Assembly (NCBI RefSeq): GCF_009914755.1
Contig: NC_060947.1
Direction: 5' to 3' (one strand)
Source of the DNA: the human T2T-CHM13v2.0 reference genome, Homo sapiens
DNA length: 64,000 nt
The position numbers and the translations under genes were made by a program. Under the pieces are notes generated by a model. The model had not been told where the DNA came from, did not search any database, and saw nothing but the letters and a program-made list of their open reading frames with translations. Positions 16,150 to 22,128 of this stretch are shown piece by piece; position 1 is the first letter of the stretch; the number at the start of each line of letters is the position of its first letter.

Positions 16150-18085
16150 ATTGTGGTAAAATATAGATAAAATTTATAATTTTAACCAGTTTTAAGTGTA
16201 CAGTTCAGTGACATGAAGTACATTCACATAATTGTGCAGCCACTACTACCATCTCCAGAATTTTTTCATCTTACAAAACTGAAACTCTGCACTCATTAAA
16301 TAATAACTCCCTTTTCCCCACAAACACCATTCTACTTCTGTGTCTATGAATTTGACTACTTTAAGTTCCTCAAATATGTAGATTCATGCAATGCTTGTCT
16401 TTTGTGATTGTCTTATTTCACTTAGCATAATGTCTTCAAGGTTCATCTATGTTGTAACATGTATCAGAATTTCCTTTGTTTATATAGCTGAATAATACTC
16501 CATTGTATGTAAATACCACATTTTGTTTATACATTCATTCACTAATGGACATGTGGTTTGCTTCCACGTCTTGGCTATTGTGAATAATGCTGCTATGAAC
16601 ATATGCGTGTACAAATATCTGTTTGAGTCCTTGCTTTCAATTGTTTTGGGTATATACCCAGAAGTGGAATTGCTGGATCATATGCTATTTCTATTTTTAA
16701 TTTTTTGAGGAATAGTCATACCGTTTTCCATAGTGGCTGCATCATTTTACATTTCTAAGAGCAGTGCACAAGGGTTTAAATTTCTCCACATCCTTGCAAT
16801 CCTCATTTATTATTCTCTGTTTTTAAAAACATATATATATGATATATATCACATATATATGATATATATCACATATATATCATATATATCATATATATGA
16901 TATATATGATATATATGATATATATATGATATATATGATATATATATGATATATATGATATATATATGATATATATGATATATATATGATATATATGATA
17001 TATATATGATATATATGATATATATATGATATATATGATATATATGATATATATACGATATATATGATATATATACGATATATATGATATATATGATATA
17101 TATGATATATACGATATATATGATATATATGATATATATATAATATATATGATATATATGATATATATGATATATATATGATATATATGATATATATGAT
17201 ATATGATATATATGATATATATGATATATGATATATATGATATATATGATATATGATATATATGATACATATATGATATATATATGATATATATGATACA
17301 TATATGATATATATGATATATATGATATATATGATATATATGATACATATATGATATATATGAGATATATGATATATATGATATATATGATATATATGAT
17401 ATATATATGATATATATGAGATATATATGATATATATATGATATATATGAGATATATATGATATATATATGATATATATGATATATATATGATATATATG
17501 ATATATATATGATATATATATGATATATATAAATCATATATATATCTCATATATATATGCCATCCTAGTGGGTGTGAAGTGGTACCTCACTATGATTTTG
17601 ATTTGCATTTGCTTAGTGATTAGTGATGCTGAAAATTTTTTCATGTGTTTATTGGTTATTTGTATATTTGCTTTGGAGAAATGTCTATTCAAGTCCTTTG
17701 CCCATTTTAAAATCTGGTTGTTAGCGTTTCTGTTTTTGAGATACAGGAGTTCTTAATATTTATTCTGGATATGAACCTCTTATCAGATATATGATTTTCA
17801 AATACTTTCCCCAAGTGTGTGGGTTGACTTTTGCTCTTGTGATAGTGTCATTCATGCACAAAAGTTTTAATTTGATATAATTCAATTTCTCTTTTTTCTT
17901 TTTCTTCTGCTGCCTGTGCTTTTGGTGTCATGTCCAAGAAATCACTGTCAAATCCAATGTCATGAAGTTTTCCAACTATGTTTTAAGAATTTTATAGTTT
18001 TAGCTCCTATGTTTAGGTCTTTGATTCATTCTGAGTTAATTTTTTATATGATGTAAGGTAAGAGTCCAATTTTATTCTTTTGTAT
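16150..18085 (-). mobile_element. L1MB-type fragment (3' UTR and ORF2 end), interrupted by an AT satellite
   Basis: 'gtatatacccagaagtggaattgctggatcata' and 'ttggagaaatgtctattcaagtcctttgcccatttt'. The L1 sequence is collinear across 16830-17558. Confidence 0.85.
16830..17558. repeat. Long AT-rich simple repeat of (ATATATG/ATATATATG)n-type units, about 730 bp
   Basis: Direct reading. It accounts for the low-complexity Y/I/S/H ORFs at 16849-17550. Confidence 0.97.
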
Positions 18086-18667: not shown

Positions 18668-20387
<1,720 letters not shown>

Positions 20388-20389
20388 GG

Positions 20390-20740
20390 AAGAAAAATTT
20401 ATGTGTTAAATGTGGCTGGGCTGCACCTTGTGGAGCGTGGGAGTGGCTGTGCAGGCGCCAGCCGCCAACCATCTCAGAATGCGTTCATTGCCTGAGCCTG
20501 GATGCCAGCATACCTGCGGCGCGGCACTCGGGGCTTGCGAGGAGACTGGCAAGCACAGACGCCACGTCCTATATCTCCCGCAACACGGTCGCCATTTTTG
20601 GTCGCCATTTTTGGTCGCCATTTTTGGTCGCCATTCTGTTGGTACTAAGGTGTTGTGGTTGGTAGAAGCTTAAGTGAGAGCATCGCGAGTAGTGTGGTCG
20701 CAGCCATGTCATTGTCACCGCTGCGGGTGGCGGTGGTGTG
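20390..20740 (+). promoter_or_regulatory. CpG-rich putative promoter / 5' UTR of the SSU72 retrogene
   Basis: GC- and CpG-rich block in an otherwise CpG-depleted window, containing the YY1-type array and a Kozak-like gcagccATG. Promoter function is inferred. Confidence 0.5.
20587..20638. repeat. 13-bp tandem repeat (GGTCGCCATTTTT)x3 plus one degenerate copy, YY1-like motifs
   Basis: Units at 20587, 20600, 20613 and 20626. Each complete unit reads AAAAATGGCGACC on the minus strand, fitting the YY1 core AAnATGGCG. Confidence 0.9.
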
Positions 20741-21290
20741 CTGGAATAACCAGAACCAGAGCATGGAGGCACACAGAGTCCTCAACAAACGAGAATTCAG
20801 TGTCCAGTCCTTTGGAATAACACCTCATGTGAAGCTTCCAGGACCAGCGCCTAACAAGCCAAATATTTATGATTTCAAAACCACATATGATGAAATGTAC
20901 AATGATCTTATCACGAAAGACGAAGAATTCTATACACAGAATGGCGTTCTGTATATGTTAGACAGAAATAAGAGAATCAAGCTCCGGCCAGAAAGGTTCC
21001 AGGATTGCAAAGATGTGTTTGATCTGATCATCACTTGTGAAGAGAGCATTTATGACCAGGTGGTGGAAGATCTAAATTCCAGAGAACAGGAGACCTGCCG
21101 ACCAGTGCATGTGGTGAACATGGACATCCAGGACAACCAGGAAGATGCCATCATAGGGGCGTTTCTCATCTGCGAGCTCTGCCAGTGTATCCAGCGCTCA
21201 GAGGATATGGAGAATGAGATTGATCAGCTGCTGCAGAAGTTGGAGAAGAAGAGAGGCCAGGCCTTCCTGCACACGGTCTGCTTCTACTAA
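20706..21290 (+). CDS. SSU72: Intact intronless SSU72-like retrogene (RNA Pol II CTD phosphatase homolog, 194 aa), catalytic Arg replaced by Gln
   Basis: ATG 20706 to TAA 21290 is 195 codons. MSLSPLRVAVVC...HVKLPGPAP...YDFKTTYD...MLDRNKRIK...DIQDN...FLHTVCFY is collinear with SSU72 without indels. It is a paralog/retrocopy, not the multi-exon parent. Expression is unproven. Confidence 0.88.
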   Translation: MSLSPLRVAVVCWNNQNQSMEAHRVLNKREFSVQSFGITPHVKLPGPAPNKPNIYDFKTTYDEMYNDLITKDEEFYTQNGVLYMLDRNKRIKLRPERFQDCKDVFDLIITCEESIYDQVVEDLNSREQETCRPVHVVNMDIQDNQEDAIIGAFLICELCQCIQRSEDMENEIDQLLQKLEKKRGQAFLHTVCFY

Positions 21291-21299
21291 TGGTCCTGG

Positions 21300-21410
21300 C
21301 CTGGAGCCCGCTGCTGTTACTGCCACTTGCTGCTGCTGCCACCACCACCATGGCCAATTTCGCCACTGCTGCTGTCGTGGCTGCCTCCCTTGCCACTGCA
21401 GCCCTCCAGA
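21300..21410 (+). repeat. GC-rich degenerate triplet tract (GCT/GCC/CCA) in the retrogene 3' UTR
   Basis: gctgctgttactgccacttgctgctgctgccaccaccaccat...gccactgctgctg. Confidence 0.7.
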
Positions 21411-21692
21411 AGCCATCGTGTTGAACTTACTTCTGTTAACACTTTTTACTTCCTGATATTTGTTAATAATTTTAGGTATTTGGTTGATGATTCTTTACCC
21501 AAAGGAATTGTACTTGTAAAATGAGAGGAGATACATAAATTCCAAGTTTCTTTTATCCCACATTTACTTATGAGTAGCATATTAATGATAAATTGCTGTT
21601 GTTGTTGATTTCCTTTAACCAAGGAGTTTGAGAAGAGCTGCCAGACCTTCACGCACAGGCCCCCTCACCCAATTTTTGAGTTGTTTGCTGTC

Positions 21693-22128
<436 letters not shown>

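What the first reader, a model, noticed from the sequence alone, without database searches (positions are those of the whole stretch)
20587..20638. Tandem array of YY1-type sites about 70 bp upstream of the retrogene ATG
Seen: three perfect and one degenerate copy of GGTCGCCATTTTT, each with a CpG, all in one orientation. Established: CGCCATnTT is the YY1 (also YY2/ZFP42-family) motif, YY1 binding can be methylation sensitive, and clustered same-orientation YY1 sites occur at imprinted or allele-specific control regions such as Peg3 and Xist. Inference: local amplification of one motif, possibly inherited from the parental 5' UTR, built or tuned a promoter for the retrogene. It may be a copy-number-variable expression or methylation switch.
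Basis: partly seen in the sequence, partly recalled or inferred. Interest (0 to 1): 0.7.

Follow-up and report, generated by a model that had tools for sequence, protein, structure and literature searches.

The report
Tripled YY1 site before SSU72 retrogene
This is a short repeat that added three copies of a predicted YY1 transcription-factor site, which an X-linked gene copy (SSU72P1) inherited from its parent gene; it likely helps start transcription of this intact primate gene copy, but that is untested and nothing points to an imprinting switch.

Summary
The array is real: a 13-bp unit, 3.8 copies, 100% matched (20587-20635), found once in the genome and the tightest of three triple CGCCATnTT clusters found genome-wide. 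It is not a new motif. The retrocopy carries about 300 bp of the parental SSU72 5' CpG-rich region, and the fourth, 'degenerate' unit is the homologue of the parent's single YY1-type site. Three intact copies were added upstream, likely by slippage, while the original lost a conserved T. The unit resembles the mouse L1 Tf site shown to bind YY1 in a methylation-sensitive way, so binding is likely. SSU72P1 has an intact 194-aa frame, groups with intact New World monkey proteins, and its older substitutions avoid conserved sites, so it was likely a selected simian retrogene. It has lost the catalytic Arg18, and its most recent changes look neutral. CpG retention gives no sign of hypomethylation. 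Copy-number variation, start site, expression and YY1 occupancy could not be tested. Verdict: an inherited promoter site turned into a small minisatellite; a promoter role is plausible, an imprinting-type switch is unsupported.

The parts
20587..20625 (+). Three identical added 13-bp units, each with an intact CGCCATnTT YY1-type site and a CpG
   Evidence: no such repeat in the parent
20626..20640 (+). Original ('home') copy, homologous to the single parental site 81 nt before the parent's ATG; one of the two conserved T's after the core is C here
   Evidence: the importance of the two T's is shown by EMSA on the mouse L1 Tf site (PMC11602158)
20411..20705 (+). Parent-derived 5' region, a remnant of the SSU72 CpG-rich promoter/5' UTR; 67% identity over 249 aligned columns with the three added units removed; parental ETS-like and SP-like motifs are lost
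   Evidence: motif consensus strings recalled
20569..20574 (+). Weak TATA-like CTATAT, absent from the parent, about 20 nt before the array; would put a start site near 20600 with no ATG before 20706
   Evidence: consensus recalled, function inferred only
20706..21290 (+). SSU72P1: intact, intronless 194-aa Ssu72 frame, 84.8% nucleotide identity to the spliced parent
20739..20759 (+). Phosphate-binding loop: Cys12 kept, Ser13 to Trp, Arg18 to Gln (CGG to CAG), so the CX5R signature is broken
   Evidence: CX5R signature from PMC8038829 passage
21392..21670 (+). Remnant of the parental 3' UTR, ending at a repeat insertion; poly(A) tail and target-site duplication not found

Best explanation
The array is a tandem amplification, likely by replication slippage, of the one YY1-type site that the SSU72P1 retrocopy inherited from its parent's 5' region, and it likely works as a small cluster of YY1 sites that supports transcription initiation of the retrogene when unmethylated. 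Shown: homology of the fourth unit and about 300 bp of flank to the parent; three extra intact copies only in the retrocopy; an intact reading frame. Inferred: a long parental transcript from an upstream start carried the core promoter along; GGT at both ends of the 15-nt home copy seeded the duplication, a 2-nt loss gave the 13-nt unit, and later slips gave three identical copies; the home copy lost a T after the first duplication, so an intact site was likely always present. Predicted: YY1 binds the three added units, more weakly when the CpG is methylated, at or just downstream of a start site near 20600, where YY1 activates. The effect would be quantitative, not an imprint.
For: Parent alignment: home copy plus UTR scores 50 vs 6.8+-5.0, and UTR without the motif 27 vs 6.8+-4.2; upstream flank 81 vs 42+-6; each 0 of 1000 shuffles; GC-rich control stretches score 52-53. 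Parent has one core motif, retrocopy three. Mouse L1 Tf site GTCGCCATCTTG binds YY1, at least 8-fold less when methylated (PMC11602158). YY1 activates just downstream of the start site (PMC11269187; PMC13017510; PMC11160661), and each unit holds an Inr-like hexamer. About 3% of expressed retrocopies inherit a parental promoter (PMC4772013). The gene was under selection: clade with intact Aotus, Callithrix and Saguinus proteins at 97/90; 2 changes at 53 conserved sites vs 9.1+-2.8 neutral, 2 of 600 simulations; simulated chance of staying intact 0.001-0.012 at 12% divergence.
Against: No expression, start-site, ChIP or methylation data could be seen. Parental CpGs are kept at 12 of 38 in the 5' region vs 6 of 25 in the coding region, p=0.58 and 5 of 18 in neighbouring TNPO3P1, so no sign of germline hypomethylation. 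The 9 differences between human and P0001 fall at neutral-like sites (0.201 vs 0.205+-0.057; 497 of 1000) and Arg18 is lost, so the gene may be decaying. ETS-like and SP-like motifs are lost. The TATA-like element is weak and lies 24 or 37 nt from the Inr-like A's. YY1's effect is strand-biased and I could not establish which orientation favours this strand. No ape DNA was available to date the expansion.
Confidence: 0.5

Rival explanations
1. Same origin, but neutral: a chance slippage minisatellite in the inherited 5' sequence of a retrogene that has recently relaxed, methylated and unbound in vivo.
For: Neutral-like recent amino-acid changes, including human G30E at a site with variability 0.01; broken CX5R; CpG decay like coding DNA; a second non-parental low-complexity stretch follows the stop codon; minisatellites are common, 35,638 VNTR loci in one survey (listing).
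Against: Triple clusters this tight were found at only 3 places genome-wide; the copies keep the T that the home site lost; the 21 changes on the stem to human and P0001 are constrained (0 of 1000); the recent-change test rests on 9 sites.
Confidence: 0.38
2. The array drives antisense initiation (leftwards, towards the Alu and TNPO3P1) or represses sense initiation from upstream starts.
For: YY1-linked initiation is strongly strand-biased; YY1 sites further downstream of a start can inhibit it; an antisense Inr-like hexamer lies at 20675.
Against: The parent's single site has the same orientation relative to its gene. No transcript evidence was seen.
Confidence: 0.07
3. An allele-specific methylation switch of the Peg3/Xist type.
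For: Three same-orientation CpG-containing sites meet the count of three in 500 bp used for such clusters (PMC2665242); X-linked.
Against: No mouse or cow orthologue grouped with the gene; no CpG protection; at Peg3 the sites set expression level, not methylation; X inactivation alone would give allelic methylation in females (established knowledge).
Confidence: 0.04
4. Assembly artefact.
For: Perfect identity of units; one haplotype seen.
Against: The array is 49 bp in unique sequence, far shorter than any read; the units differ from the home copy in a structured way.
Confidence: 0.01

Closest known systems
Retrocopies with a parentally inherited promoter (Carelli et al. 2016, PMC4772013, passages seen)
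   Same: About 300 bp upstream of the coding region is homologous to the parent's 5' CpG-rich region.
   Different: No CAGE start site shown here; one inherited factor site has been tandemly amplified.
Mouse L1 Tf 5' UTR monomers (PMC11602158, passages and one section seen)
   Same: Head-to-tail repeats each with a GTCGCCAT-core YY1 site and a CpG, on a retroposed element.
   Different: Here the unit is 13 bp, about one zinc-finger footprint (recalled), ends in TTTT not CTTG, has only three intact copies, and binding is untested.
Clustered YY1 sites of Peg3, Xist, Nespas (PMC2665242 passages; PMC5526879 abstract)
   Same: Three or more same-orientation CGCCATnTT sites with CpG near a gene start.
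   Different: Those are spread over longer, mammal-wide conserved, differentially methylated regions; this is a perfect 13-bp repeat at an apparently simian locus with no methylation evidence.
TRIB3 promoter VNTR (PMC7425993, search listing only)
   Same: Short promoter repeat with few copies; precedent for copy number setting expression.
   Different: TRIB3 has shown alleles of 1-5 copies and an expression effect; neither is shown here.
SSU72L genes on chr11 (formerly SSU72P2 etc., PMC12807706 passage)
   Same: Intact intronless SSU72 retrocopies once filed as pseudogenes.
   Different: Separate clade, 63-65% identical, keep Arg18, and the 3 upstream regions checked have no YY1 core.

Membership tests
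YY1-binding site | CGCCATnTT core with both downstream T's | tested here: met
   Units 1-3 match; unit 4 does not
YY1-binding site | Bound by YY1 in vitro or in vivo | not testable with these tools
   Only analogy to the L1 Tf site
Clustered-YY1 imprinting/allelic control region | Three or more motifs within 500 bp near a gene start | tested here: met
   Three in 35 bp, 90-116 nt before the ATG; start site itself not shown
Clustered-YY1 imprinting/allelic control region | Cluster conserved in human, mouse and cow | tested here: inconclusive
   No other genome held; the protein clade holds only simian rows among those placed, which argues against
Clustered-YY1 imprinting/allelic control region | Differential, allele-specific methylation | not testable with these tools
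   Indirect CpG-retention test shows no protection
Promoter VNTR | Head-to-tail repeat with unit of 7 bp or more | tested here: met
Promoter VNTR | Copy number varies between individuals | tested here: inconclusive
   No hit in supplements of four catalogues; GRCh38 position only estimated from recall and tables partly held
Retrocopy with inherited promoter | Upstream sequence homologous to the parent's 5' region | tested here: met
Retrocopy with inherited promoter | Start site lies in the inherited sequence | not testable with these tools
   No CAGE data; supplement of PMC4772013 not available
Functional retrogene | Intronless, intact frame shared across species | tested here: met
   synteny of the monkey copies not checked
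Functional retrogene | Purifying selection | tested here: inconclusive
   Older changes constrained, pairwise dN/dS 0.25, recent changes neutral-like
Active Ssu72 phosphatase | CX5R signature | tested here: not met
   Cys12 kept, Arg18 is Gln

The most novel reading that the evidence does not exclude
SSU72P1 is a misannotated simian X-linked retrogene that in apes encodes a catalytically dead SSU72, a decoy or reader for the Pol II CTD and symplekin, and its germline dose is set by a young, length-variable, methylation-gated array of YY1 sites grown from the inherited parental promoter.
Probability: 0.1. Interest if true: 0.65.

Novelty: new member of a known kind. Interest (0 to 1): 0.33.

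Why it matters
It is a clear sequence record of how a retrocopy can reuse a parental promoter: one inherited factor site multiplied while neighbouring sites decayed. If YY1-dependent expression holds, it offers a compact natural test of YY1 site number, spacing and methylation, and it would support reclassifying SSU72P1, as was done for SSU72P2, here as a likely pseudo-phosphatase. If not, it is an ordinary minisatellite.

Tried and rejected
De novo origin: rejected by parent homology. CpG richness as proof of an active island: o/e 0.76-0.82 vs 0.21 for the window, but retention of parental CpGs equals that in coding DNA, so rejected. Pairwise dN/dS 0.25 (CI 0.16-0.41) as proof of selection: weak, since dS includes the parent's branch and CpG decay, and the amino-acid count (43) equals the neutral expectation at 12% divergence; replaced by the site-conservation test. 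Eutherian age: not supported; fourfold non-CpG divergence is 6 of 43, like TNPO3P1 (88% identity), and tenrec joins the clade at only 92/85. RNA fold of the 5' region: z -2.45, 2 of 200 shuffles, ensemble frequency 0.01; repeat-driven, not pursued. Poly(A) and target-site duplication not found. Literature: 'SSU72P1' gave one false hit; unit sequence, TNPO3P1 and 'SSU72 pseudogene' gave only the HGNC paper; two searches found no study of this copy among rows listed. Supplement searches of PMC8096271, PMC13308034, PMC11701250, PMC11975116 and PMC2584115 gave no hit. Two wanted papers were not held, which leaves human-specific expansion and motif orientation open.

Full report
Observation. The window shows three perfect 13-bp units and a fourth imperfect one at 20587-20638. 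TRF gives period 13, 3.8 copies, 100% matches. CGCCATNTT occurs 4 times in 64 kb, 3 of them here, against 0.50 expected; 0 of 100 shuffles reach 4. A two-unit 23-mer is found only here in the genome. Triples of the core with gaps up to 12 nt were found at 3 places genome-wide, the others being longer-period repeats on chr21 and chrY. Pairs with gaps up to 6 nt were found at 4 places. The tool notes such counts may be lower bounds.

Origin. The downstream frame (20706-21290, 194 aa) is Ssu72 and matches five separate exons on chr1, so it is a processed copy. The parent has one long YY1-type site 81 nt before its ATG. The fourth unit and the 65 nt after it align with that site and UTR with one gap (score 50 vs 6.8+-5.0; without the motif 27 vs 6.8+-4.2; each 0 of 1000 shuffles). 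Homology continues upstream to about 20411 (81 vs 42+-6, 0 of 1000; two GC-rich controls 52-53). Identity is 67% over 249 columns, mostly C>T and G>A. The parent has no such repeat. So the 'degenerate' unit is the original, and the three perfect units are additions. About 30 nt of parent just upstream, holding an ETS-like word, is missing or overwritten; the alignment cannot tell which. The home copy is 15 nt with GGT at both ends, and dropping 2 nt gives the 13-nt unit; slippage on that microhomology is my inference. The added units keep the parental T that the home copy lost, so the first duplication likely preceded that change. The expansion could not be dated without ape DNA.

Is there a gene to drive? 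Of 338 homologues at E<=1e-60, 120 were listed. The best, P0001 (named Pan paniscus, 10 members), differs at 9 of 194 sites. A careful tree of 23 rows (21 chosen from the 120, plus this protein and one chr11 copy) groups the human protein, P0001, Aotus, Callithrix and Saguinus at 97/90; a quick tree of 57 rows gave 82. The monkey proteins share 14-15 of 42 derived residues, other rows at most 9. Synteny was not checked, no separate Old World monkey row appeared, and databases show only intact copies. Pairwise dN/dS to the parent is 0.25, but the number of amino-acid changes equals the neutral expectation at 12% divergence. The pattern is not neutral. Using site variability from 88 of 116 other homologues, human changes are conservative (1 of 600 simulations), fall at variable sites (0 of 600) and hit 2 of 53 conserved sites against 9.1+-2.8. 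The 21 stem changes are constrained (0 of 1000), whereas the 9 recent ones are neutral-like (497 of 1000). Human and P0001 carry Arg18 to Gln and Ser13 to Trp in the CX5R loop; the monkeys keep Arg (signature from PMC8038829 passage). SSU72P1 was thus likely a selected simian retrogene that is now either a pseudo-phosphatase or relaxing.

How the array would work. Mouse L1 Tf monomers carry GTCGCCATCTTG, which binds YY1 by EMSA, at least 8-fold less when methylated, and needs both downstream T's (PMC11602158, passages and section 15). Units 1-3 keep both T's and unit 4 does not. YY1 is unusual in activating from just downstream of the start site (passages of PMC11269187, PMC11160661 and PMC13017510). 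A weak TATA-like word at 20569, absent from the parent, would place a start near 20600, with no ATG before 20706, and each unit has an Inr-like hexamer (consensus words recalled). This fits an inherited core promoter, a route used by about 3% of expressed retrocopies (PMC4772013 passages; its supplement could not be read, and may list this copy). All of this is prediction.

Against. The 5' region is CpG-rich (o/e 0.82, or 0.76 with the added units removed, vs 0.21). But parental CpGs survive at 12 of 38, against 6 of 25 in the coding region (p=0.58) and 5 of 18 in TNPO3P1, so there is no sign of germline hypomethylation. ETS-like and SP-like words are lost. YY1's effect is strand-biased and the favoured orientation could not be established. 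The imprinting analogy meets only the count criterion of PMC2665242 (passages); at Peg3, mutating the sites altered expression but not methylation (PMC5526879 abstract).

Variation and prior description. Supplement searches of four tandem-repeat papers and one retrocopy paper gave no hit. This is inconclusive: the VNTRseek file was cut, lists coordinates and not motifs, my GRCh38 position was estimated from recall, and I did not confirm that chrX rows were reached. Full-text searches for the gene name and unit sequence found no study of this locus. The library lacks most subscription papers. HGNC has moved SSU72P2 to protein-coding SSU72L2 (PMC12807706 passage).

Verdict. A YY1-supported inherited promoter is the most likely working role (0.5), with a neutral minisatellite close behind (0.38). 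It is a new member of known kinds. Interest 0.33, much of it from the retrogene itself.

Noticed in passing
window 20706-21290: SSU72P1 is annotated as a pseudogene but has an intact frame, intact simian relatives and constrained older substitutions; catalytic Arg18 is Gln in human and P0001. The 9 differences to P0001 look many if that protein is bonobo.
   Followed up: yes
window about 18677-19975: TNPO3P1 extends beyond its annotated span and has two halves in opposite orientation relative to the chr7 parent, as expected of a 5'-inverted (twin-primed) retrocopy; a chr6 copy also matches on both strands.
   Followed up: no
window 21291-21391: About 100 nt of GCT/CCA-rich low-complexity sequence between the stop codon and the start of parental 3' UTR homology, not in the parent; a second local expansion.
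   Followed up: partly
L026:1197-1930 (chrY 1.306 Mb): Minisatellite of about 19-bp period with 11 CGCCATnTT matches in the locus, a much larger same-orientation YY1-type cluster.
   Followed up: no
L024:1500-1550 (chr21 10.71 Mb): Diverged 20-bp repeat with three CGCCATCTT sites.
   Followed up: no
L008 (chr7 125.79 Mb) and L002-L007 (chr11 4.30-4.40 Mb): Seven further intact SSU72 retrocopies; the chr7 copy shares its upstream flank with the chr11 copies checked, so it likely arose by DNA duplication.
   Followed up: partly
window 21682-21939 and 16831-17559: An Alu-like repeat interrupted by an L1 3'-end-like piece at the end of the retrocopy (family names recalled), and a 730-bp AT-rich tandem array.
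   Followed up: no
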